Source: Squalus acanthias (taxonomy: Eukaryota). Taken from it: a stretch of DNA of 64,000 nucleotides. Shown here piece after piece: positions 49,281 through 64,000 of the stretch. The stretch covers positions 27,220,001 through 27,284,000 of the forward strand of contig CM059432.1 of NCBI GenBank assembly GCA_030390025.1. Direction: 5' to 3'. The notes under the pieces are model-generated. The model was not told the origin of the DNA, ran no database searches, and was given only the letters and a program-made list of their open reading frames with translations. Each line of letters opens with the position of its first letter. The first letter of the stretch is position 1. The translations under genes were made by a program, and so were the position numbers.

Positions 49281-50131
49281 AATTGTACTCTACATCCCTG
49301 CAGTTTATGTACCACACAAACAATCCCCAGTGATGTAACTGCACCGGTGCCTATTATCATTCAGTTTCTCTGCACAACAGCCTCTTAGCTTAGGATATCC
49401 AGCTGCCAGGCTTCATTCAACAGTACCGACTTAACAGTATCAACACAACAGTTCAAGTACTTTTAAGAAAGAGGGCTTTTCGAACTCTACAATTACATAA
49501 AATTAATTTTATTCTAACTTGTTTTAAAAACAAATAATTAGCAACTCATTAAAGACAATTTATTCAAAAAACATGTCAGTTTAACTTACACAGTGAACTT
49601 CCAACAGCATATAATGAGAAAGCCTCCCATTTTAAAAGGTGCAATCAAAACTAGTTTCTGTTAGCAGATGAAATTGGTCACCACAGAGATGCTATCAAAA
49701 CATGTTAAAAAAGAATGCTCGTGCACTGGACCTGTCATTCCAGATTAGAGCCATCTGAGACACATGCAGCAATTGTGCAATACTGCACTAGTTTCCCTCA
49801 CTCTTGTATCTGTTAGAGTAAAGAGGTAACATACCCAAGTTAAAAATTAGGGAGTTGGAACTAAAAAGTGAAGTCAATAGTTCTTTTTCACCCTAAGAGC
49901 AATAAAGGAGGTCTCTTAAAGGAGGCAAATGGGTTGAGGAAGAGTTTCTGGAGAGAAACAGTTGAAGGATGTAATTAGAAGTTGTGTAGATTTATTAAAA
50001 AGGAGACACGTTTGTTGAATGGAAAAGGAAAAGTTTTGTGGCTGACCCGAGTTTCACATCCTGTACAGGTAGGACATCTGGAAGTACTGAGGCAAAACAT
50101 GGGTAAATTTACACGGGTAAATCGTCGACAG

Positions 50132-51881
50132 TGTAAGGGATTCCCTGACCCTGCGTGTCTCGTAGCCTGTGAGATTCACGCGGCTCTGTGCAGCCTGTAT
50201 GTCAGTGCGGGTCTAGGCCTGGTTGCCTGTTCTGGTCTCCAGCCAGTCTGGGAACACTAGACACACCTGTGAGTGGTTCGAATCACTCTCCCTTACGGTT
50301 CTAGACACTGGACTTAGATGCGAGAGCAGTAATGGAGATAAAACTCATGTAGACTTGGTTTGAATGGTACGAAATGGAAAATCTTTATTGCATGATACTT
50401 AAAATTATGAAATACATGTCATAAGCACAGATTAATGACAGTACAATCTTACAAACAGTTATATAGTCGATCTTAGGGAAACGAGGAACGAACGGCACAA
50501 CGTAAATAGGGGCACACATTACAAATATCCTTAATCTTTAAACCCTCCCCTATCAATATCTATCCTAAACTAGCTTCGTAGGATCTCGAGACTCATGCTC
50601 ACCACTCGTGATAACTCGGAGAAATTCCGAATAGCTGATCGGATGTCTTTCACCGCAGCACCCACGTGTCGGTCAGGAGATCTCCTGGTCCCACTTGTTT
50701 ACTTGCTTCTGCTGCTTCGGCTAGTAGGCTGGACCGTCTGCTGTGATGAAGACCTGTGTTGGCTGGTTTAACAGGTACTCTTGGAGCACCGTTGTCAATA
50801 TCATTGATACGATGTGTTTTCACGTTCCAACCTCCTTAGACACAGTCCCGTTATCGTCGATGCAATATGTTTTGTTAGAAGTTTTAAAGAAGAAAACTTC
50901 CTGGCGAGGAAAACTTGGCTGATCGACCTACAGGCGCGGTCGGGATTTACTGACCGTGGCGATGGATATGGTCTTCTTCTCTTCTCCTCTCATCTCATCT
51001 CATCTCATCTCATCTCGGGCCTTTGGTTCCGCTGCCAGTTACCAACATAGGTCTTCGTTACGCGACACGAGGTAGATCCGTACGGATCAGAAAGTTCAAC
51101 AGTCTTTTCAGAAGAGGCAACAGGCACGCAGAAGCCCAACTACGAGTACACAGGAGCAGCCACGAGGTTACGAATCGACCGGATAAAACACAGGAGCAAG
51201 CGAGCGAACGCAGGAGCAAGAACAAGAGCACGAGGCAAGAGGCAAGAGAGCGAATGGACGGTTTGGAGCCTGCAATTATAGTGCAAAAATCTTCCGTTTC
51301 CCGCCCAACTATAATGTCCATTCTTTTGTTTAGGGTTTGGCGCCCAAATGTCTTGTATGGGTGATCTCCGTTCTTAATGGGTTTCGGGGCTACTCATGAA
51401 TGTTTGAGTACCTGTTAATATTTCTCCCATTGTTAAATCGGTCGGTGTTCTCCCTGGAGGGGTTTGGGGCTTCCAAGTGTCATGTATAACTACCTGCTAA
51501 CGGCTCTCTCATCGTAGAGTCGTTGGGAGTTTACATATTAATGTCCTTTGGATGGGCCCTTGATTACTCGGTACAATGGCTTTCCTTTGTACCTGGGAGA
51601 CCGATTCCAGTATCTATGTTTATACTGCAAACCCATAATGTCTCGTGTATTATCTTCACTGTGCTGAATCGTTATCGATCTTGCACAAATGTTTAATGGA
51701 ACGCCATCTTGTCTGCCTGTTGAAAAGTCCAGAATGTTCTGTCACGAGGTGCGGCGGCCATTTTACAGGCTGCTTGTGTCCAATTTAAACCTGCCAGCAT
51801 TCTGCTGAAATAAAAGCTGTTTGAACGAAACTTTGTGTTTTCTCCTTATTAATCAAATCGCGATATATTGCGAATTCTACA
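50132..51881 (-). repeat. 3' LTR (1750 bp)
   Basis: Direct repeat of 59910-61659; ends TGTA...TACA; minus-strand AATAAA at 50384-50389. Confidence 0.97.
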
Positions 51882-51893
51882 GTCCCTCCTGTT
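51882..51893 (-). promoter_or_regulatory. Polypurine tract (AACAGGAGGGAC)
   Basis: Purine-rich stretch immediately 5' of the 3' LTR on the coding strand. Confidence 0.7.
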
Positions 51894-52304
51894 GATGCGA
51901 ATAACTCCGCTTATCGTATCAAAAATCACAGTGGTGAGCAATCTTATCTCGATTTCACTCCGAATCCAGTAAATTAATCCCATAAATTTTAACTTAACGA
52001 GGGTCTCTGTGTCGTCCTTATTTCCCAAGAAAATCACATTTTATATCACCGTAGGCATCATTTGCCCTTAAACTTACACCACTTGTTTTCCTTCCCGGCG
52101 TAACCAGGCCGATACCTCACGCATCACCTGTATATTTGTCTTTTATTCAGGGAAAGGAAAAAACAAAACCCAAAACCAAACAATCAACACCATCACCAAA
52201 ATAAACAAATCCCAACTCTTAAACATGTCGAGTTTCCAACGTATTTACAATGAGTACAAACTTCCGCGGCGCACGCGGCGAGCGGGAGTGGCGCCATTTT
52301 CCGA

Positions 52305-54176
52305 TTACACGGTGCTCTCATCGTGCACGCGCACGTAACGTTCTCGCCACTCTCCCGTGTTTTCATGCTTGGTGAGGCGCTTGTCTCTTTTACAATGTAT
52401 GACCAATAGGTACACTACAATAAACACTTGACAGACGACTAAAATGTGGGAGGCTATTCTGATCCATGAAGGCACTTCAATATTCGTGAACAGATTCCAC
52501 CACGGTGGAACCACTATGTCCAGAATGTCTGTTCCTATTTCGACAGTTTTCTGCTCTAATGTATAAAAATGTTTCTGTGATACCGCGACGGCTTTCAGAA
52601 GTTTGGTTAAATGCTCAGGGAGAGGGGGAATGAGGTATCCAAAATGCGCGACAAATCGCTGCAAGTCGGTGAAATTCTCTTTTACTGTGAGATGAACAGT
52701 GGATGGTTCAGGGATTGGGATAATTCGCTGTTGTGCTACTTGAACTTCAGCCCTGGGTTTAAAACAGAAACTGCTGTCACTCACCGGACACCGGCTACGG
52801 TTTCCATGCTGGTAGTGTTGCGCTGCAGTGGTAACACAATATGTTCCACCCCCGATGTATGCTACCTGCGGAGGCACATGATCTTGTGCCATTGCCTCCA
52901 TGGTGCAATTCATGGACTTGGCGCCAGCCGTTCTGAACCCGCACTGTGGTGTTAAAAAGGCACTCAAGTGCTGGGGGCACAGTATTATGTGTGCTCCCCT
53001 GCCACGACAACCAGAGAGATCTGTACCTGTCATCGTTTGCTCCCAGCGGATGACGTAAGGTGGAACTGCTGCATAACGAATGTGGGCTCCCCCCTGAATG
53101 ACACCAATGTTCTCTACCCGATACACCGGGGCGGGCTTTGCTGTGTTGCCCAAAACCGGCATGCGTAATACTATTCCCATAATAGTATGGTTTGAACGTC
53201 CGCAGTCCACGGGGACTGGGTAAGCTTCTGAAGCTAGCCTGAGCTGGCACGGACTTAATGCGTTCTGAAAAGGGTGGAGCGCCCGCAGGTGTTTGTTACT
53301 TATCCAGGACGGAACCAAACCTTGTTTTAAATCCTCCAAATTACTGCGGCCCTCGCCCAGTAACCACGCCCCGTAAAGCACGCACACCTCGTTCTGCGCA
53401 GCTTGATCGGATGCATTCCGATCTTCCCTGATCAGGGCATTTACCGTACGCGCATGTTTCTCCAGCTCTGCTATAATTTCCTTTAAATGGAGAGTCATGG
53501 CTTGGTCCTCGTGTAGACCTGACCCTACCACTTTATTCTCATCTGTTAGAATGTCTTTTAACTGTGTTTTTAAACCATTAATCTGGGTCTGCAGCTCCAC
53601 ACTGTCTAGAGCGTTGACCACAGATGTCCCTGTGTTAAAAGCAGTGAACGCATCGTTCACCAAACCCCTTCTTTGCCTCCCTACTTGATCCAAAACTTCC
53701 TGCGGTGCGGTGTACAAACTTGTCTTATCAATTTCTGCAAAATCAAACTCGTAAAATTGTCTGAACATCTTGGTCAACAGGACCTGATACAACTGTTCCG
53801 TCTTTTTGGGGCACCACTCTGGTAACCGTACCTCAGTGAGATTTAAAATCACCGAGGCCACCGCGTAATGTACCCCCTGAAATAGTATCTGGTCTGTGGG
53901 GACCAGTACCAAACCGTTCCCGGGTCCCTTACTAGCTTTAGGGCACCCTTCTTCCTCAGCTAGAACCACCGGAATCGTGGGCGGGGCTTTGCGTGGGCGC
54001 GTAATGAGTTCAGTGGCATTTACTGGGATCGGGGAGAATGGGGCTCCGCACCCCCTGGTGCTCGCATCCCACCTCATCCCCTGTCCGTTATCCTGCCATT
54101 GATTAATAAAAAAATATGGAGATGCCTTTGGGGCAAACGTACTTTGACCCCCACATACATACATAAATCCCCTCAT
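52305..54176 (-). CDS. env: Envelope / class I fusion glycoprotein, C-terminal part (furin site, fusion peptide, heptads, Cys-rich domain, TM)
   Basis: RQRR|GLVNDAFTAFNTGTSVVNAL; heptad LQTQINGLKTQLKDIL; Cys-rich central block; Trp-rich juxtamembrane region; TM ILVVCQVFIVVYLLVI; no signal peptide in this frame. Confidence 0.88.
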   Translation of the reverse strand: MRGFMYVCGGQSTFAPKASPYFFINQWQDNGQGMRWDASTRGCGAPFSPIPVNATELITRPRKAPPTIPVVLAEEEGCPKASKGPGNGLVLVPTDQILFQGVHYAVASVILNLTEVRLPEWCPKKTEQLYQVLLTKMFRQFYEFDFAEIDKTSLYTAPQEVLDQVGRQRRGLVNDAFTAFNTGTSVVNALDSVELQTQINGLKTQLKDILTDENKVVGSGLHEDQAMTLHLKEIIAELEKHARTVNALIREDRNASDQAAQNEVCVLYGAWLLGEGRSNLEDLKQGLVPSWISNKHLRALHPFQNALSPCQLRLASEAYPVPVDCGRSNHTIMGIVLRMPVLGNTAKPAPVYRVENIGVIQGGAHIRYAAVPPYVIRWEQTMTGTDLSGCRGRGAHIILCPQHLSAFLTPQCGFRTAGAKSMNCTMEAMAQDHVPPQVAYIGGGTYCVTTAAQHYQHGNRSRCPVSDSSFCFKPRAEVQVAQQRIIPIPEPSTVHLTVKENFTDLQRFVAHFGYLIPPLPEHLTKLLKAVAVSQKHFYTLEQKTVEIGTDILDIVVPPWWNLFTNIEVPSWIRIASHILVVCQVFIVVYLLVIHCKRDKRLTKHENTGEWRERYVRVHDESTV

Positions 54177-54657
54177 CCGGTTCCCACCATTTGTCCCAAC
54201 AGACTTTCACTTGTCCGTCTGTCCCCGTAATTGTCCGATGGGTATTATTACCCAGTCGTTCCCACTCGACCGAAGAGTTTCTCATAGTTTTGCTCAGCTT
54301 TCGCAGCCACCACCATCGGCTCAATGGGACATTCCCACTACAGGTCAAACAAATCCGTTTGCCGACGGTGACGCTGATCCTGGGTGCGATGATCCTTACT
54401 TTGGGGCACATTAAAGAAGTCTCTTTGTAGGCGAACCCCGATGTGCTGGAATACTCCGTTGAGTTCGTTCCCAGCCATCCTGGCCACCTTCCCTTGTGGA
54501 AATAGGTGCTGGTCCCCTCTGCCTTTCGTCTTCCGGTCCCATCCACCGCGATGGGGGCCGTGTCCCCAGAACATCCAAACACCACGACATCCTTGGTGTG
54601 GCCTCGATAGGCCAATCCACATCCGATTGCCACGAGCAATACTAGAATTCGTTCCAT
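54103..54657 (-). CDS. Signal peptide and Ig-like domain protein (probable Env N-terminus; ORF open from 54816)
   Basis: MERILVLLVAIGCGLA; ICLTC...RWWWLRK...DEGIYVC; N-glycosylation sequons NST, NSS and NNT; AGGATGG Kozak context just after a CACAG splice acceptor. Confidence 0.75.
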   Translation of the reverse strand: MERILVLLVAIGCGLAYRGHTKDVVVFGCSGDTAPIAVDGTGRRKAEGTSTYFHKGRWPGWLGTNSTEYSSTSGFAYKETSLMCPKVRIIAPRISVTVGKRICLTCSGNVPLSRWWWLRKLSKTMRNSSVEWERLGNNTHRTITGTDGQVKVCWDKWWEPDEGIYVCMWGSKYVCPKGISIFFY

Positions 54658-54837
54658 CCTTCCTTGGTTCCTGTGATCAGATAGAATGAGGTAGCCAGCC
54701 TCGCAAAAGTCTCTGGCTTTTGTGAAGGGTGAGCGGGTCCCCTGACCTCGCCTCACGTAAACTTCAACGTTTGCTGAATAGACTTCCTCTAAACCTAGCC
54801 TTAAAACTCCCATCATTTTATCGTTTTCTGTTAAAAC

Positions 54838-54940
54838 ACTACAAACTTAGCCTTATTAAAACTTAAAACTTAACCTTGACCCTACAAACTTAAACTTAAC
54901 CTTGAACTATAAACTTAAAACTTAAAACTAAAACTTTACA
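54838..54940. repeat. Degenerate AAACTT/AACCTT low-complexity repeat between pol and env
   Basis: Direct reading. Confidence 0.75.
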
Positions 54941-54967
54941 GTGCCGCCCGTTCTCAGGGCGGCCCCT

Positions 54968-57900
54968 TTAAATTCTGAGAAGGCTGCTGCGAGCTCTTCC
55001 CGACGGTGGGAGGGCACTGACCCTTCCCTCTGATCTGCCGCAGCCTGTTACTGCTGCGATGTGGCCTGTCTGTACCCGGGTTATCTTAACCTGAAGTCTA
55101 CGCCTTGGGGCAGTCTGGGGACATGACCACATCCTCCTGGGCTGGGGTTCTCTACTTGACCTACGGGGAGTTGCTATGGGCGGGGGTTCCGTGACGGACG
55201 GACCGGGTTCCGAGACCTCCAACGGGATGACCTGGGGTTCCATCACAGTCGCCGGCTCCGCCTCCGCTGACTCCGCCTCCCTAACCTCGGGGCTGGCAGT
55301 TCGTGGCTCCGCCCTGCTCGGCCCAGCAGGCGGCCCTTCACTCGTGATCTCTGCCTCCCCTGAGGACTGGACGTTCAAGGCGGGCGGCCACATCTCTGGG
55401 AGCCACATTGGTACTCTCTGTGCTCCTATAGCGGCTGGCCCTGCCTCCTCTAGCTCCTCCCTCCTGTCCTCGGGACCTGCAGCTTGTGTGTCCACCCTGT
55501 GTGGATCTCTACCTATCGGCCCCATTCCCCCCAGACCGTTCCTCAGGAACCACCCGTCATCATCACTATGCTCATCTGCACTATCCTCATCTGACCAGGG
55601 TACCCTGGGTTCTTCGTCATCTAACCCCCAACTCCAGAAAAACGCTGCATGATCGTCCGGGATGTCCCTTCCTCTGATGCAAGCTGCTATGCCTGCCTGT
55701 GTGCCTTGTGGTCCTACCTGGGGCTGTGCTTTCCCATTGGCGGGATTTACCCCTGTAGTTTTCCCCTGCGCACCCGGCTGGTACAGTTTGCATTGGTTTA
55801 TGTGGAACCACTTAGTGCGCCGAGGCACTTTTACGGCGTAAACCATGGGACTCGCCTTGTCTACAATGTTGTAGGGTCCCATATACAGTGGTTCCAGACT
55901 CCCTACTCTGGCGTAGTTTCTGACCATGACCTGGTCTCCTACTTCCCACTCCCGCGTTTTGCGGGGTTCCAGCAACAAGCGATTGCCCTGATGCTGCCTT
56001 CCCATGTTCCCAGCCGCCTGCTCATAAACTTGCTTCAGGCGCTCCAAGAGAGTCTGGGCGAACTTGTCCCTGCTTATCTCTTGAAGCTGACCCTCAGTGA
56101 GCACCGGGGCTAGCACATGGGTGGGGGTTCGCATGAGCCTGCCGGTCATTACCTCGTGCGGGGAGTACCCCGTACTTTTTGACTGACTGGCCCGGACCCC
56201 CATGAGGACTAAAGGCAGAACTTCCGCCCATTTTTGGGGCGAGTTCCTAGTTTCTTTCCTCAATTTCTCCTTCAGGGTCCGGTTCATACGTTCAACAATC
56301 CCGGATGACTGGGGATTGTGTGCTACGTGCCACTTCCCTTCAATGCCCAAAAGCATGAGGGTGTTCTGCATCACCTGGCCGGTGAAATGACTCCCTTGGT
56401 CTGACTCCACGAAACGGGGGAGTCCCCACCGCGAGAACACTTCCCGGACCAAGATTTTTGCTGTACCCAGTGCCGTAGCTGTTCGACACGGGAAGGCTTC
56501 CACCCACTTGGAAAACACATCCACCAGGACGAGGCAGTACTTATAACCTCCCTGGGTGGTGGGCAGGGGTCCTATATAGTCGATCTGTATCGACTGCCAT
56601 GGTCCCTCTACCCTTCTTACGTGTCCCATGGGCACCTTCCTTTTCTGGGGGTCTGGGTTGTTTGCAGCGCACACAAGACAGTTTGCACAGAACTCGCGGA
56701 CTTGTTCCCTGAGCCCTGGCCACCATCCCGCTTGCTCTACCCGTTGCCAGGTAACCTCGGGCCCGGGGTGCCCTGCCCCTGGTCCCTCGTGAGCCAACTG
56801 GAGGAATTCCCTCCTGTGCTGCTGCGGCACAACCCACTGCTCCCCGCGGAACAGCATGCCTTCCTTAACTGAGAGGGTTGCCGTACTGTACGGACCTTCT
56901 ACCTGCCTCCCCTCAGCAATCGTTTTTAGGACTGCTTTTAGGGCGGGATCCTGGGCTTGGACGGTCTTAAGGTCTAGGGGCAATGCTACCCTGGTGTTCC
57001 CGGTATTCCCGTCCCCGCCTCGGACCGCTGCTATGGGTCCGGTCCTATAGGGGTTCCAGAAAGTGCCGTCGCGGGCACCCTCCCTGGCTAGCGCATCCGC
57101 CTGCCGGTTGCCCTCCCCACGGGGCTCTGTGGAGGAGTGAGCTTTCACCTTATGGATGAAAATCTCCCCTTCCTCCCCTACTGCTGCTGCTAAGATCTTT
57201 TCCAGCAAGGGCTTCACCGTTAAAGGTCGCCCGTCCGCGGAGGTGTATCCGCGGCGGGACCAAATGGCCAGGTATTCCGTACACGAATTGCAGGTGAACA
57301 TACTGTCCGAGCAAATCGTGTATGGGGTTGGGAAAATGTCTGGGTGGGTCACCACGTACACCACGGCAGACAGCTCAGCCTGCTGCGCGCTCATGGTGCT
57401 AGGGAGCTTGATCGCCAGGGCAAGGTCTGCCGCAGGGTCATAAACTCCACACCCTGTGAGTCGCTCGCCAGCAGACACTGTGCTAGATCCATCAACATAA
57501 ATCTCGCGCCCAGTGGGATGTATCCCGGCCCGTAAACCTATGTTGACGTCCCACACCCCTTCCACCGAACACCGGTGGGCTGTACCGGGGTATACCAAAT
57601 TGGCCGCAAGCCTGGGCTCGCAAAGACCTTTTACTCTAAGATCCAACTGGGAGAGAAGAAGGGTCCAACGCGCAATGCGTGCGCTGCTTACGGTCCCGTC
57701 TTTAATCCTCCCATCCAGAAGCATCTTAGTTGGTGTGTGATGTGTGAGGAGAGTGATGGGAGAGAGCCCTGTGAAGATCGCTGATCTTTTCACAGCCCAA
57801 TGCGTGGCTAAAAGGTGCCTTTCGCAATTGGAAAAACTTCTCTCCACATCCGTTAATACCCTGGATGAATAGACAACCGGCCTCAGCTTGCCGTGACGCT

Positions 57901-59905
57901 CTTGGAGCAGCACGGCGCTTAAGCTGTCTCCGCTGGCAGCTACCTCCAGGAAAAACTCCTTCCCCCCATCTATGGCCCCTAAGGCTGGCGCGGTCTGCAG
58001 ATCCCTTTTTAACTTCTCGAAGGCTGCTTGGCAGCCCTCGTCCCAAAGCCACTCCACCCCCTTATGGAGGAGTCGGAGGAGCGGCGCCGCTGTGGCCGCA
58101 TAATCTTCGATAAAATCCCTGCAGTAACCGGTCAGTCCCAAGAAGGACCTCACACCCCTTACGTTGTTGGGAATCGGTAATTCTTGCACCGACTCCCTCC
58201 TTGCTTTGTCTATGGCTCTTTCCCCAGCGCGTAGGGTCAGTCCCAGGAATTTTACTTCCTGCTGACCGATACGTGCTTTCTTTGGGTTTACTTTAAAACC
58301 CTTTCTCGCTAACAGCTCCAATAACTCGTCCAGTAGTGGTCCGTGCTCCTCCCTTGAGTCCGTAAATAGGAGCAAATCATCCACATACTGTACTATCTGA
58401 TTGGGCTGACTAAACTCCTTTAAACTTCCTGCCATACACTGATGAAAAATACTGGGGCTATTGTGGAAACCCTGTGGCAAACAGTTCCACGTGTACTGTT
58501 GCCCTCTGAACGTAAAGGCAAACTTGTACTGGTCCTCTCGCCGCAGCGGGATGGACCAAAAACCGTTCGAGATATCCAGCACCGTGAACGTGGTCGCGGA
58601 CGCTGGGATGCTCCCTATTAGGTCAGCAACTGCTGCTACTGTGGGCGCGCAGGCGGGAATGTTACTGTTAAGGACTCTGTAGTCCACCGTGGCTCTCCAC
58701 GAATTATCCGGCTTCCTAACCGGCCATAATGGGGAGTTCACGTGTGTGGCTATCGGCCTCAACACGCCCTGCTGCACCAAGGAAGACATTGCTGTCTCCA
58801 TATCGGGTTCTGCTTCTTTGGGGAAGTTATACTGCTTTTGGGGTCGGGTCATGGGGTCCCCATCTACGCTGACCTCAAACCCGACCACTCTCCCACAATC
58901 GTGCTTGTGGGTTGCAAACGCGTGCATATTATCTGACACGTACGTTTGCATGTCCGTTGGGACATCTGCGACCATAAGCCTGAGGTCGTAGCCTCCGGAT
59001 GGCTGTACGGTACACAGGACCCCCGGTTCTTCCCCACCGTTTCTGCTTGGGCCCCTTTTAATACCCGTTACTGGATACAACGATCCCTTTTCTTCTTCCT
59101 TTTCAATGGGCTTTTTCGTTCCTTCCATTGCTTCCTCCCTAACCCAGGTTTCTGAGTAGCTGGGTGGCGCGGAGGGCGCAGTGGCTACTACTTCTTCTGC
59201 TTTACTTGGTGGGGATTTTCTAAATCTCTCATTTACTAGCGGCTGGTGCGCCGACGGATTGATAAGGCACACCATGCCGTTCGCATTATTCACGGCCTTT
59301 TTGAGGCTCTCTATCTCCCTTTGGCAGGCGCTATGGTCGGCTCCCTGAAACTTATCCTCAAGGGCCAACTTATACGCCGACCTAACCCCCATTAAGCTCT
59401 CTTCTTGAGTTCTTATCTGGGCAGCTTGGCGGTTGCATCTTTCCTTTAACCTACTCTCATTCAATTTTGCTTCAGTGACCTGGCACTCGAGATACTCTAT
59501 CCTTGTTTTAAGGTGACTGGAGACTTCCTGGCTTTCCTGGTGTAACTCATTTAAATTCTTAATGAGCACCTCCCCTCCAGAAACCTTCTCCTCCATTTCT
59601 CCCTCTAAATGGCTGATTCGAGCTGTTAGCGCTGTAATGGTCTGGTTTGAAATCTGAACCTGCCTTTTGTAGCACATAAGCCAGACTGCTTTCTCAACTG
59701 TCTTTTTATGTTCCTTACTATCTGTCCACCTTTCAGCTGCCTCTAGTGGGCTCTTATCCGCTAACAATTCACTTATCCACTTCTTAGTTAGATTAACCTT
59801 TCCAAACACATAATCCGCTATCTTTTCCTGCATAACATTTCGTACAGTCATTCCAAAATCTAACACACTACCCTCTCGCTGCCAGTGTCCTGCCGCGGTC
59901 GCCAT
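54968..59905 (-). CDS. pol: Single Gag-Pol ORF: coiled-coil Gag N-terminus, RT, tether, RNase H, integrase, acidic/Pro-rich tail
   Basis: NSPLWPVRKPD, LDISNGFW, LPQGF, YVDD (58376-58387); tether VAAS...CERHLLA; RNase H YVDGS/QAEL/CSDS/HKVKAH/GNRQAD; integrase HHCC, IDY/SDQG/VERMN and GPY. Confidence 0.95.
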   Translation of the reverse strand: MATAAGHWQREGSVLDFGMTVRNVMQEKIADYVFGKVNLTKKWISELLADKSPLEAAERWTDSKEHKKTVEKAVWLMCYKRQVQISNQTITALTARISHLEGEMEEKVSGGEVLIKNLNELHQESQEVSSHLKTRIEYLECQVTEAKLNESRLKERCNRQAAQIRTQEESLMGVRSAYKLALEDKFQGADHSACQREIESLKKAVNNANGMVCLINPSAHQPLVNERFRKSPPSKAEEVVATAPSAPPSYSETWVREEAMEGTKKPIEKEEEKGSLYPVTGIKRGPSRNGGEEPGVLCTVQPSGGYDLRLMVADVPTDMQTYVSDNMHAFATHKHDCGRVVGFEVSVDGDPMTRPQKQYNFPKEAEPDMETAMSSLVQQGVLRPIATHVNSPLWPVRKPDNSWRATVDYRVLNSNIPACAPTVAAVADLIGSIPASATTFTVLDISNGFWSIPLRREDQYKFAFTFRGQQYTWNCLPQGFHNSPSIFHQCMAGSLKEFSQPNQIVQYVDDLLLFTDSREEHGPLLDELLELLARKGFKVNPKKARIGQQEVKFLGLTLRAGERAIDKARRESVQELPIPNNVRGVRSFLGLTGYCRDFIEDYAATAAPLLRLLHKGVEWLWDEGCQAAFEKLKRDLQTAPALGAIDGGKEFFLEVAASGDSLSAVLLQERHGKLRPVVYSSRVLTDVERSFSNCERHLLATHWAVKRSAIFTGLSPITLLTHHTPTKMLLDGRIKDGTVSSARIARWTLLLSQLDLRVKGLCEPRLAANLVYPGTAHRCSVEGVWDVNIGLRAGIHPTGREIYVDGSSTVSAGERLTGCGVYDPAADLALAIKLPSTMSAQQAELSAVVYVVTHPDIFPTPYTICSDSMFTCNSCTEYLAIWSRRGYTSADGRPLTVKPLLEKILAAAVGEEGEIFIHKVKAHSSTEPRGEGNRQADALAREGARDGTFWNPYRTGPIAAVRGGDGNTGNTRVALPLDLKTVQAQDPALKAVLKTIAEGRQVEGPYSTATLSVKEGMLFRGEQWVVPQQHRREFLQLAHEGPGAGHPGPEVTWQRVEQAGWWPGLREQVREFCANCLVCAANNPDPQKRKVPMGHVRRVEGPWQSIQIDYIGPLPTTQGGYKYCLVLVDVFSKWVEAFPCRTATALGTAKILVREVFSRWGLPRFVESDQGSHFTGQVMQNTLMLLGIEGKWHVAHNPQSSGIVERMNRTLKEKLRKETRNSPQKWAEVLPLVLMGVRASQSKSTGYSPHEVMTGRLMRTPTHVLAPVLTEGQLQEISRDKFAQTLLERLKQVYEQAAGNMGRQHQGNRLLLEPRKTREWEVGDQVMVRNYARVGSLEPLYMGPYNIVDKASPMVYAVKVPRRTKWFHINQCKLYQPGAQGKTTGVNPANGKAQPQVGPQGTQAGIAACIRGRDIPDDHAAFFWSWGLDDEEPRVPWSDEDSADEHSDDDGWFLRNGLGGMGPIGRDPHRVDTQAAGPEDRREELEEAGPAAIGAQRVPMWLPEMWPPALNVQSSGEAEITSEGPPAGPSRAEPRTASPEVREAESAEAEPATVMEPQVIPLEVSEPGPSVTEPPPIATPRRSSREPQPRRMWSCPQTAPRRRLQVKITRVQTGHIAAVTGCGRSEGRVSALPPSGRARSSLLRI
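59887..59904 (-). promoter_or_regulatory. Primer-binding site complementary to tRNA-Arg (UCG-type)
   Basis: TGGCGACCGCGGCAGGAC, 5 nt after the 5' LTR; its complement GTCCTGCCGCGGTCG-CCA matches my recollection of the vertebrate tRNA-Arg(TCG) 3' end. Confidence 0.85.
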
Positions 59906-59909
59906 TTTC

Positions 59910-61659
59910 TGTAAGGGATTCCCTGACCCTGCGTGTCTCGTAGCCTGTGAGATTCACGCGGCTCTGTGCAGCCTGTATGTCAGTGCGGGTCTAGGCCTGG
60001 TTGCCTGTTCTGGTCTCCAGCCAGTCTGGGAACACTAGACACACCTGTGAGTGGTTCGAATCACTCTCCCTTACGGTTCTAGACACTGGACTTAGATGCG
60101 AGAGCAGTAATGGAGATAAAACTCATGTAGACTTGGTTTGAATGGTACGAAATGGAAAATCTTTATTGCATGATACTTAAAATTATGAAATACATGTCAT
60201 AAGCACAGATTAATGACAGTACAATCTTACAAACAGTTATATAGTCGATCTTAGGGAAACGAGGAACGAACGGCACAACGTAAATAGGGGCACACATTAC
60301 AAATATCCTTAATCTTTAAACCCTCCCCTATCAATATCTATCCTAAACTAGCTTCGTAGGATCTCGAGACTCATGCTCACCACTCGTGATAACTCGGAGA
60401 AATTCCGAATAGCTGATCGGATGTCTTTCACCGCAGCACCCACGTGTCGGTCAGGAGATCTCCTGGTCCCACTTGTTTACTTGCTTCTGCTGCTTCGGCT
60501 AGTAGGCTGGACCGTCTGCTGTGATGAAGACCTGTGTTGGCTGGTTTAACAGGTACTCTTGGAGCACCGTTGTCAATATCATTGATACGATGTGTTTTCA
60601 CGTTCCAACCTCCTTAGACACAGTCCCGTTATCGTCGATGCAATATGTTTTGTTAGAAGTTTTAAAGAAGAAAACTTCCTGGCGAGGAAAACTTGGCTGA
60701 TCGACCTACAGGCGCGGTCGGGATTTACTGACCGTGGCGATGGATATGGTCTTCTTCTCTTCTCCTCTCATCTCATCTCATCTCATCTCATCTCGGGCCT
60801 TTGGTTCCGCTGCCAGTTACCAACATAGGTCTTCGTTACGCGACACGAGGTAGATCCGTACGGATCAGAAAGTTCAACAGTCTTTTCAGAAGAGGCAACA
60901 GGCACGCAGAAGCCCAACTACGAGTACACAGGAGCAGCCACGAGGTTACGAATCGACCGGATAAAACACAGGAGCAAGCGAGCGAACGCAGGAGCAAGAA
61001 CAAGAGCACGAGGCAAGAGGCAAGAGAGCGAATGGACGGTTTGGAGCCTGCAATTATAGTGCAAAAATCTTCCGTTTCCCGCCCAACTATAATGTCCATT
61101 CTTTTGTTTAGGGTTTGGCGCCCAAATGTCTTGTATGGGTGATCTCCGTTCTTAATGGGTTTCGGGGCTACTCATGAATGTTTGAGTACCTGTTAATATT
61201 TCTCCCATTGTTAAATCGGTCGGTGTTCTCCCTGGAGGGGTTTGGGGCTTCCAAGTGTCATGTATAACTACCTGCTAACGGCTCTCTCATCGTAGAGTCG
61301 TTGGGAGTTTACATATTAATGTCCTTTGGATGGGCCCTTGATTACTCGGTACAATGGCTTTCCTTTGTACCTGGGAGACCGATTCCAGTATCTATGTTTA
61401 TACTGCAAACCCATAATGTCTCGTGTATTATCTTCACTGTGCTGAATCGTTATCGATCTTGCACAAATGTTTAATGGAACGCCATCTTGTCTGCCTGTTG
61501 AAAAGTCTAGAATGTTCTGTCACGAGGTGCGGCGGCCATTTTACAGGCTGCTTGTGTCCAATTTAAACCTGCCAGCATTCTGCTGAAATAAAAGCTGTTT
61601 GAACGAAACTTTGTGTTTTCTCCTTATTAATCAAATCGCGATATATTGCGAATTCTACA
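59910..61659 (-). repeat. 5' LTR (1750 bp)
   Basis: Direct repeat of 50132-51881; the only difference seen is C51730 versus T61508. Confidence 0.97.
61029..61125 (-). promoter_or_regulatory. Putative LTR core promoter
   Basis: TATAAT (61053-61058) 29 nt before a pyrimidine-rich GCTCTCTT start; CGGAAG (ETS-like) and TTTCCCGC / TTTGGCGC (E2F consensus) just upstream. Confidence 0.55.
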
Positions 61660-61663
61660 ACAG

Positions 61664-62970
61664 TGCTATCAAGCAGCACATACTCACCAATAACCTGCTC
61701 ACCGATGCTCAGTTTGGGTTCCGCCAGGACAACCTGGCTCCAGACCGGTCCAAACATGGACAAAGGAGCTGAATTCCAGAGGTGAGGTGAGAGTGACTGC
61801 CCTTGACATCAAGGGAGCATTTGACTGAGTGTGGCATCAAGGAGCCCTAGTAAAACTGAAGTCAATGAGAATCAAGGGGGAAAACTCTCCATTGGCTAGA
61901 GTCATACCTCGCACAAAGGAAGATGGTTGTGGTGATTGGAGGTCAATCATCTCAGCCCCAGGACATCACTGCAGGCGTTCCTCAGGGCAGTGTCCTAGGC
62001 CCAACCATCTTCAGCTGCTTCATCAATGACCTTCCCTCCATCATAAGGTCAGAAGTGGGGATGTTCACTGATGATTGCACAGTGTTCAGTGCCATTCACA
62101 ACTTCTCAGATAATGAAGCAGTCCATGCCCGCATGCAACAAGACCTGGATGACATTCAGGTTTGGGCTGATAAGTGGAAAGTAACATTCACACCACACAA
62201 GTGCCAGGCAATGATTATATCCAACAAGCAAGAGTCTAACCACCTCCCCTTGACATTCAACGGCATTACCATCGCCGAATCCCCCACCATCAACATCCTG
62301 GGGGTCACCATTAACCAGAAACTTAACTGGACCAGCCACATAAATACTGTGGCAACAAGAGCAGATCAGAGGCTAGGTATTCTGCGGTGACTGTCTCACC
62401 TCCTGACTCCCCAAAACCTTTCCACCATTTACAAGGCATAAGTCAGGAGTGTGATGGAATACTCTCCACTTGCCTGGATGAGTGCAGCTCCATCAACACT
62501 GAAGAAGCTTGACACCATCTATGACAAAGCAGCCCACTTGATTTGGCACCCCATCCACCACCTTAAACATTCACTCCTTCCACCACCAGCGTACAGTGGC
62601 TGCAGTGTGTACCATCGACAAGAGGCACTGCAGCAACTCACCAAGGCTTCTTCAGAAGCACCTCCCAAACCTGCAACCTCTAACACCTAGAAGGACAAGG
62701 GCAGCAGGCACATGGGAACACCATCACCTGCAAGTTCCCCTCCAAGTTACACACCATCCTGACTTGGAAGTATATCGCTGTTCCTTCATTGTCGCTGAGT
62801 CAAAATCATGGAACTCCCTGCCAAGCAGCACTGTGGGAGTACCATCACCACACGGACTGCAGCGGTTCAAGAAGGCGGCTCACTACCACCTTCTCAAGGG
62901 CAATTAGGGATGAGCATTAAATGCTGGTCTTGCCAGCGACGCCCACATCCCATGAACAAATTTTTAAAAA
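61664..62970 (+). mobile_element. CR1/Jockey-group LINE (second family), 5'-truncated, target of the ERV insertion
   Basis: ORF 61923-62390 GVPQGSVLGPTIFSCFINDL and FTDDC; same 3' end as 17233-18105. Confidence 0.88.
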
Positions 62971-63101
62971 TTCAATCACAAAACCAATCAAACATATTCA
63001 ACCCTTATATTTAGGTAAGACACAAAAGTCCCTCTATATACTTCAATAACTAATTAAGGGATGGAACCATCCAGTCCACAGGTAGCCTTTGTGTGCCTTT
63101 G

Positions 63102-64000
63102 GGGGTAAAAATTCAGTTGGTTGCGCCTCCCGTTAGCGCCTTAAGAGGGCGCTAATGGGGCGCAAAGCCGCTAACGCCCGGGCCCAGCGATGTTTGCACC
63201 GCTCGGGAACTTAACTAGAGATTGTGCGGCGGCGCTAAACCTTACCGCTGCGACCACCTGCGCGCGCAGATTGTGACGTCATTCCATGGTGCAACGCCCT
63301 TGTGGCGCCCCGGAGCGGAAATTGAGTGGCGCCCCCTGCCTTACCGCCTGGCGCATCCAACGACCGGAAGACTGGAACGCTATCAATCGCTGTGGGGCTG
63401 GGGGGGGCGCTATTTAAAGGGGGCCTCTTCCTGTCTTTTTCTGTGGTCGACATTTTTGCACCACTCGTTCTGAGAGAGAGAGAGAGATTCGGAGAGAGAG
63501 AAAGAGAGACTTCTGCATTGACTCAACGCTTTGTGAGGTAGTTTTGCCTACTGATCCTAACTTCGCTAGTACTTTAGTTGCTGTCCTTCATTACTTTGCT
63601 TGCAAAGAGAATATGGGGGCTGCACTGATTGGGGGCGTCGTCCTGCTCCAGCTGAATCGGAGGAGACAGAGACGCAGAGAGAGAGTGGCAATGATGGCCA
63701 GACGGAGGAGGGCCAACAGGCATATGTACAGGAGAGCTTACCCTCCCAGGGTATATCGTGAACAGCTCTCCTACATTCATATGTCTGAGGAGCTGTGTTT
63801 GCGAAGGCTGCGATTCAGCAAGGAGGTGGTCACTGAGCTCTGCCACCTGCTGCAGCCAGATCTGCAGCCTCAACTGAGGTCCAGGACGTCTCTGTCGGTG
63901 GCAGTGAAGGTCACAATGGCTCTCAACTTCTACGCTACTGGCTCATTTCAAGCTGCTGGTGGGGACCTCGCCAATATCTCCCAGTTCGTGGTGCATTGCT
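63102..64000 (+). mobile_element. Second Harbinger copy (opposite orientation), transposase from ATG 63613 running off the window
   Basis: TIR GGGGTAAAAATTCAGT; reverse-complement homologue of ~27950-28853. Confidence 0.92.

What the first reader, a model, noticed from the sequence alone, without database searches (positions are those of the whole stretch)
50132..61659. Very young, lokiretrovirus-like endogenous element with atypical gene content
Seen: equal-length LTRs with one mismatch by eye, clean TSD, 18-nt PBS, uninterrupted pol, and Pol with a degenerate RNase H (tether) followed by a second RNase H containing the His loop. Established: tether plus RNase H is characteristic of vertebrate retroviruses, and lokiretroviruses combine it with Env resembling Mononegavirales F proteins. 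Inference: this is a recently integrated member of that lineage or a neighbouring one, and may be polymorphic or still active in this host.
Basis: partly seen in the sequence, partly recalled or inferred. Interest (0 to 1): 0.85.

Follow-up and report, generated by a model that had tools for sequence, protein, structure and literature searches.

The report
Young shark retrovirus, not a lokiretrovirus
This is a broken copy of a recently spreading, thousand-copy retrovirus in a likely shark-type genome; it is a true retrovirus rather than a lokiretrovirus, likely of the snakehead-fish-virus grade, and its family's envelope is predicted to fold like a measles-type fusion protein.

Summary
The provirus is real and young: 1,750-nt LTRs with one mismatch, ACAG target duplication, an 18-nt tRNA-Arg(UCG) primer site, and tether plus intact RNase H. 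It is not intact. A private in-frame deletion of about 1.36 kb removed capsid, zinc knuckle, gag stop and protease, and env is frameshifted. The 'atypical gene content' is mostly this damage.

It is not a lokiretrovirus: RT has the LPQG motif, falls inside canonical retroviruses (100/99), and grouping with Loki is rejected (AU p=0.0008). It belongs to a deep lineage with frog, coelacanth and bird relatives and a snakehead-retrovirus (SnRV)-like layout; sisterhood with SnRV is unresolved.

The family has at least 1,354 primer-site junctions, about 1,800 env copies and 948 pol-less copies. Ten of ten sampled LTR pairs are at least 99.4% identical. Env is under purifying selection (pN/pS 0.08), which points to reinfection. 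Env is predicted F-like with a probable Ig head. The integrase groups with Loki and NYNRIN (96/93; alternatives not rejected). Polymorphism and present activity are untested. The scan noted this family before, on other pieces of this genome.

The parts
50128..50131 (+). Target-site duplication ACAG, left copy
50132..51881 (-). 3' LTR, 1,750 nt
51882..51893 (-). Polypurine tract
   Evidence: same sequence next to 7 of 30 sampled LTR starts
52305..54206 (-). env, downstream frame (633 codons): F-like fusogen with furin site RQRR (about 53667-53678), heptad repeats, Cys-rich region, TM
   Evidence: model of the family Env matches paramyxo/pneumovirus F, Foldseek E 1e-11
54103..54657 (-). env, upstream frame: signal peptide and probable Ig V-like domain (about 54157-54396). 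Out of frame with the fusogen part in this copy; the break lies in the overlap 54103-54206
   Evidence: (Ig_3 E 0.14)
54968..55780 (-). Acidic, Pro-rich tail of about 270 aa behind integrase; no Pfam match
   Evidence: kept in frame in the pol-less sub-lineage
55781..56830 (-). Integrase (HHCC, core, SH3-like end); groups with Loki and NYNRIN integrases
57080..57505 (-). RNase H with catalytic residues and His loop
57629..57955 (-). Tether (degenerate RNase H)
58043..58834 (-). Reverse transcriptase (LPQG, YVDD)
59020..59033 (-). Junction of an in-frame internal deletion of about 1.36 kb (capsid, CCHC knuckle, gag stop, protease missing), at a short imperfect repeat; unique in the assembly
59034..59905 (-). 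5' part of gag with N-terminal coiled coil; likely start codon overlaps the PBS
59887..59904 (-). Primer-binding site for tRNA-Arg(UCG), 18 nt
59910..61659 (-). 5' LTR, 1,750 nt; TATA-like box near 60238-60243 and the only AATAAA near 60162-60167, implying long U3 and short R (inferred)
61660..61663 (+). Target-site duplication ACAG, right copy; followed by a LINE fragment (RVT_1 at 61869-62387)

Best explanation
This is a recently inserted, defective provirus of a large young endogenous retrovirus family in a likely cartilaginous-fish genome; its RT places it among canonical retroviruses, not lokiretroviruses, likely near the snakehead-retrovirus grade. In the family (shown from other copies), gag opens at an AUG overlapping a tRNA-Arg primer site and encodes coiled coil, capsid region and one CCHC knuckle. 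It ends in UGA-CUAG in frame with pro-pol, so Pol is likely made by stop-codon readthrough (inferred). Env is a single frame with a probable Ig-like head and a predicted F-type fusogen. The family likely spread by forming particles and reinfecting germ-line cells (inferred from purifying selection on env), and it carries a pol-less satellite lineage. The window copy lost capsid to protease in one deletion, likely a template jump during reverse transcription, was likely packaged and integrated with proteins from helper copies, and has not multiplied.
For: LTR, TSD, PBS, PPT. Deletion: 23 of 23 measurable other copies (of 29) carry 1,357-1,360 extra nt with knuckle and protease; junction found once in 3.7 Gb. 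Env continuous in 27 of 29 closest copies and 23 of 30 position-ordered copies. TGA-CTAG in 29 of 29. RT motif LPQG as in SnRV; 21 of the 22 Loki RTs read show PFG, the other is gapped nearby but also reads PFG. RT tree: canonical clade 100/99, Loki outside; AU rejects window+Loki, p 0.0008. Nearest Pol relatives 40-43% identical in frogs, coelacanth, Xenopus. SnRV shares coiled-coil Gag, one knuckle, in-frame gag stop and an alignable Env (hhalign prob 91, E 1e-6). Env pN/pS 0.077 (20 copies), gag 0.24 (28 copies); 10 of 10 LTR pairs 1-10 mismatches with 4-bp TSD. Foldseek to hPIV3 F E 1e-11. Env relatives at 53-75% only in skate and sawshark.
Against: SnRV sisterhood is not shown: support 83 in the quick RT tree, under 80 in the careful one, and the RT-tether-RNase H tree puts SnRV on the class I side, 97/95. 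AU does not reject grouping with foamy (p 0.135) or class I (p 0.084). Integrase groups with Loki/NYNRIN, 96/93. ERV-L, ERV4, class II, Odin and fish foamy-like RTs were not in the trees. Capsid has no Pfam match and little similarity to SnRV capsid. The Ig model is weak (pLDDT 45, best E 0.009). No strong hairpin behind the gag stop (z -0.17). Purifying selection on env shows replication with Env in the past, not today. The two lesions were not checked against reads. Host class is inferred, not identified.
Confidence: 0.8

Rival explanations
1. A lokiretrovirus, or a mosaic with a Loki body (Gag coil, integrase, F-type Env) whose RT came from a canonical retrovirus.
For: Integrase clade with Loki and NYNRIN 96/93; integrase scores 195-209 bits to Loki against 125 to SnRV; F-type Env; coiled-coil Gag as in Loki and Bik-1.
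Against: RT grouping with Loki rejected; RT-tether-RNase H also separates it from Loki 100/100. The same RT/integrase pairing occurs in frogs, coelacanth and birds, so it is an old lineage, not a recent chimera. An integrase tree that follows the RT tree is not rejected (p 0.12). SnRV has the Gag coil and a related Env.
Confidence: 0.1
2. The family amplified inside cells by retrotransposition and in-trans complementation, with Env only carried along.
For: 948 pol-less copies show that trans-complementation works here; no RNA run or particle evidence was obtained.
Against: Env pN/pS 0.077 with 170 silent against 46 replacement codons, and 23 of 30 frames open at 10% synonymous divergence; even pol-less copies keep env.
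Confidence: 0.06
3. The deletion and env break are assembly errors and the locus holds an intact provirus.
For: Both lesions are private to this copy; single-base errors occur in assemblies; read check did not complete.
Against: The deletion sits at a short repeat and keeps frame, typical of reverse-transcription jumps; the copy has its own LTR variant on both sides; 7 of 30 sampled env and 10 of 30 pol stretches are also broken, so damaged copies are common.
Confidence: 0.04
4. A foamy-related (clade Tu) element.
For: AU does not reject it (p 0.135); long U3, coiled-coil Gag.
Against: Foamy RTs form their own clade 100/100; CCHC knuckle, in-frame gag-pol stop and Arg primer site differ from foamy viruses (foamy traits recalled).
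Confidence: 0.02

Closest known systems
Snakehead retrovirus (SnRV) and clade Huo ERVs (Xu et al. 2018, PMC6001957, passages read; L124/P0015 identified by exact match of its RT start to the published SnRV row)
   Same: LPQG/YVDD RT (43% identical), coiled-coil Gag N-terminus, one CCHC knuckle, in-frame gag stop after CCA, Env alignable over the fusogen; Arg primer site in SnRV is recalled.
   Different: UGA-CUAG instead of UAG; PBS 5 nt from the LTR and overlapping the gag AUG; Env 783 aa against about 1,100; integrase of Loki/NYNRIN type; 270-aa tail after integrase; sisterhood unsupported in trees.
Lokiretroviruses (Wang and Han 2020, PMC7947760; main text parts 1-3 of 4 and supplement parts 8, 67, 68 read)
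   Same: Dual RNase H, F-like Env with RXRR site, coiled-coil region before capsid, integrase near CGIN1/NYNRIN.
   Different: RT motif and placement; probable Ig head on Env; Loki was found in 0 of 6 chondrichthyan genomes.
CmiERV lineage I of elephant shark (Han 2015, PMC4422223, part 1 of 2 read)
   Same: SnRV-clustering ERV in a cartilaginous fish.
   Different: LTR divergence 3.3% and few copies there, against 0.06-0.6% and over a thousand here; sequence not compared directly.
Unclassified frog, coelacanth and bird ERVs annotated 'protein NYNRIN-like' (P0002-P0007, P0194-P0196); mammalian NYNRIN/CGIN1
   Same: Nearest Pol relatives; NYNRIN integrase nests with frog and coelacanth members 100/98.
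   Different: 40-43% Pol identity only; NYNRIN+Loki is not rejected (p 0.175). Marco and Marin 2009 seen only as a reference.
Paramyxovirus and pneumovirus F proteins
   Same: Predicted fold of the Env fusogen.
   Different: 9-15% identity, no Pfam PF00523 match, extra N-terminal domain.

Membership tests
Lokiretrovirus | RT groups with Loki, sister to canonical retroviruses | tested here: not met
   (AU p 0.0008); anchors P0200, P0203, P0212, P0209 labelled by match to published Loki RT starts (P0209 by resemblance only)
Lokiretrovirus | PFG motif in RT, as in the published Loki alignment | tested here: not met
   window LPQG; Loki rows
Lokiretrovirus | Tether plus RNase H | tested here: met
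   shared with all retroviruses
Lokiretrovirus | F-like Env with RXKR site | tested here: met
   also alignable to SnRV Env
Lokiretrovirus | Integrase related to CGIN1/NYNRIN | tested here: inconclusive
   96/93 support; alternatives not rejected
Canonical Retroviridae | RT inside the retrovirus clade | tested here: met
   100/99
Canonical Retroviridae | LTR-PBS-gag-pro-pol-env-PPT-LTR order | tested here: met
   family copies; this copy lacks capsid and protease
SnRV-like / clade Huo | RT clade with SnRV | tested here: inconclusive
   83, under 80, AU p 0.50, separated
SnRV-like / clade Huo | Coiled-coil Gag, one knuckle, gag-pol by in-frame stop, related Env | tested here: met
   capsid similarity not detected
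Ty3/Gypsy | RT in Metaviridae, single RNase H | tested here: not met
Spumaretrovirinae / clade Tu | RT with foamy viruses | tested here: inconclusive
   separate clade, AU p 0.135; fish foamy-like ERVs not sampled
ERV4 / ERV3 (Chong et al. 2014, PMC4299795 passages) | 5-bp TSD, no zinc knuckle, no GPY/F | tested here: not met
   4-bp TSD in 11 of 11, CCHC present, GPY present
Invading ERV (ERVi, PMC10435555 section 6) | Identical LTRs and intact genes | tested here: not met
   this copy: one mismatch, deletion, frameshift; none of 10 sampled pairs was identical
Invading ERV (ERVi, PMC10435555 section 6) | Insertional polymorphism | tested here: inconclusive
   contigs of two samples stop at 50110, before the junction

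The most novel reading that the evidence does not exclude
An undescribed deep branch of true retroviruses, spread over sharks, skates, frogs, coelacanth and birds, that keeps the ancestral kit shared with lokiretroviruses (coiled-coil Gag, F-type Env, CGIN1-type integrase), adds an Ig head to Env, gave mammals the NYNRIN integrase, and is still invading this shark's germ line by reinfection.
Probability: 0.3. Interest if true: 0.8.

Novelty: new variant of a known kind. Interest (0 to 1): 0.55.

Why it matters
Wang and Han left open whether F-type Env and the Loki integrase are ancestral or were acquired by Loki alone. A canonical-RT lineage carrying both, plus an alignable Env in SnRV, favours 'ancestral' and can be tested with trees. 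Published shark ERVs that I read about are old and few, and a survey of invading ERVs that included 13 cartilaginous fishes lists no chondrichthyan order among its 37 host orders. A family with over a thousand young, mostly open-frame copies is therefore unusual. The single copy in this window is ordinary debris of that burst.

Tried and rejected
Programmed frameshift or two-gene env: rejected, 27 of 29 other copies have one frame. A natural capsid-less, protease-less architecture: rejected, junction unique. Sequence searches of Env against PDB and Pfam found no F family; only the fold did. Ig head of SnRV Env: seen by eye only, hhalign prob 7. RNA structure after the gag stop: none beyond shuffles. 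Polymorphism from Logan contigs: uninformative; the read check of the deletion junction did not complete. No RNA holder listed. An uninterrupted copy of the target site was not found among fetched loci. The 'env last545' line is invalid (one copy of other length) and was dropped; crashed. A host-gene search gave 74-81% on best exons to a Mustelus protein, compatible with but not proof of a shark. LTR ORFs of 44-87 codons were not tested. Paper searches with no relevant hit.

Full report
Observation. The element lies on the minus strand at 50132-61659. Its LTRs are 1,750 nt, start TG, end CA and differ at one site; the flanks repeat ACAG; a purine tract precedes the 3' LTR. The PBS begins 5 nt after the 5' LTR and matches host tRNA-Arg(TCG). 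One long frame holds a coiled coil, RT, tether, RNase H, integrase and a 270-aa tail. The tether lacks its acidic residues and the second RNase H has them with the His loop (by eye). So the structural observations hold.

The copy is defective. No protease, capsid or knuckle is present. A search of the own genome returned 39 near-identical copies whose best match began only at RT. Of 29 fetched, 23 could be measured and all 23 carry 1,357-1,360 extra nt at window 59020-59033, encoding the rest of Gag with a CCHC knuckle, a stop and an aspartyl protease. The junction lies at a short imperfect repeat and occurs once in the assembly. Env is split into two frames here, but is one frame in 27 of the 29 closest other copies. 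The 'atypical gene content' is thus mostly private damage.

The family. Exact patterns give lower bounds: 1,354 PBS-LTR junctions, 4,479 LTR starts, 1,823 env motifs, 2,043 RT motifs including older sub-lineages, 948 pol-less junctions. In samples taken in chromosome order, gag is open in 28 of 30, env in 23 of 30 and a 650-codon pol stretch in 20 of 30. Ten of ten LTR pairs differ at 1-10 sites, each with a 4-bp TSD, while they differ from the window LTR by about 2-12%, which excludes assembly collapse. With the shark rate assumed by Han 2015 (2.2e-10 per site per year) one mismatch is about 1.3 My, with a wide Poisson range (0.03-7 My); at the mammalian rate a tenth of that. 'Very young' is therefore relative. 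Env pN/pS is 0.077 over 20 equal-length copies and gag 0.24 over 28: Env function was selected during spread, which points to reinfection (inference). All 29 copies read have TGA-CTAG at the gag end, a readthrough context known from alphaviruses and some cellular genes (recalled); no stimulatory hairpin stood out.

Placement. In the RT alignment of Wang and Han's supplement, Loki rows show PFG where SnRV and other retroviruses show LPQG; the window has LPQG. Database hits supplied anchors: SnRV (P0015, L124), Loki (P0200, P0203, P0212, P0209), gamma, epsilon, foamy and Gypsy. From 187 RT rows plus viral contigs I used 65 for a quick tree and 45 for a careful one (rows left out were mostly redundant Gypsy, gamma and near-copies). 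The window falls in canonical retroviruses (100/99), Loki outside; window plus Loki is rejected (p 0.0008). Its group holds frog, Xenopus, coelacanth and bird ERVs (89/78; 90/97 without birds). SnRV joins at 83 in the quick tree only, and goes to the class I side when tether and RNase H are added; AU rejects neither SnRV, foamy nor class I as partner. Layout favours the SnRV grade: coiled-coil Gag, one knuckle, in-frame stop, alignable Env. The integrase groups with Loki and NYNRIN (96/93), but trees following RT are not rejected; this is a lead.

Env. An AlphaFold model of a natural family Env (37-row alignment, mean pLDDT 61, core 80-94) matches hPIV3, RSV and henipavirus F (E 1e-11). The N-terminal part has a C..W..D-x-G-x-Y-x-C pattern; its weak model (pLDDT 45) returns mostly antibody chains at the top of the list (best E 0.009), and a Chiloscyllium relative is annotated Ig-like. 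An attachment role is a guess. Relatives occur in skate, sawshark, Mustelus, Chiloscyllium and, distantly, frogs. This, the 3.7-Gb size and the LINE-rich flanks suggest a cartilaginous fish (inference; one search is compatible).

Mechanism. Shown: integration hallmarks, family gene order, lesions, copy numbers, selection. Inferred: readthrough, particle formation and reinfection, origin of the deletion by template jump, helper-dependent integration of this copy. Not shown: expression, polymorphism, present activity.

Literature. PMC7947760: main text parts 1-3 of 4, supplement parts 8, 67, 68 and passages (file cut, integrase alignment mostly unseen). PMC4422223: part 1 of 2. PMC10435555: passages and section 6; its supplements were not read and could list related elements. 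Passages only: PMC6001957, PMC4299795, PMC12440569, PMC9040795, PMC9447858, PMC3670739, bioRxiv 2024.03.25.586437 and 2023.10.26.564294. SnRV-like ERVs in a chimaera and clade Huo in all vertebrate groups are published. Searches for this family or an Ig-headed F-type retroviral Env found nothing relevant; Repbase and most subscription journals were not searchable. Earlier scan notes on other pieces of this genome describe the same family; my reading was set before I saw them.

Verdict. A real, young but crippled provirus; not Loki; a new variant of the deep SnRV-grade retroviruses whose interest lies in the family. Interest 0.55.

Noticed in passing
L183-L186; G000-wide: Pol-less sub-lineage: gag and env kept, protease to integrase replaced by a short coiled-coil insert in frame with the post-integrase tail (373-397 codons open) in 4 of 5 short proviruses read; 948 exact junction matches.
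   Followed up: partly
P0224, P0225: Mammalian NYNRIN integrase nests with frog and coelacanth ERVs of this lineage (100/98) rather than with Loki; AU does not exclude Loki.
   Followed up: partly
window 59887-59905: The likely gag AUG overlaps the primer-binding site in strong Kozak context; frame open for 505 codons in 28 of 30 copies.
   Followed up: partly
window 50268-50292: A tRNA T-arm-like hairpin with a B-box-like GTTCGAATC inside U5, on the strand opposite to the element.
   Followed up: no
G000 C26, 39-42 Mb: Long tandem arrays (1.6-kb unit) of tRNA-Arg(TCG) with tRNA-Ser(GCT) genes; the primer tRNA is highly amplified.
   Followed up: no
L094-L123: 23 of 30 LTR starts border host DNA and 7 border the PPT, so solo LTRs are common; U3 varies strongly between sub-lineages (77-97% to the window LTR).
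   Followed up: partly
P0119, P0122, P0123: Shark gene models that fuse pieces of related ERV pol or env to host genes; may be mis-annotation or exonisation.
   Followed up: no
window 1-50000 and 61660-64000: Flanks are dense in CR1-type LINE fragments and Harbinger-like transposon remnants (read by eye).
   Followed up: no
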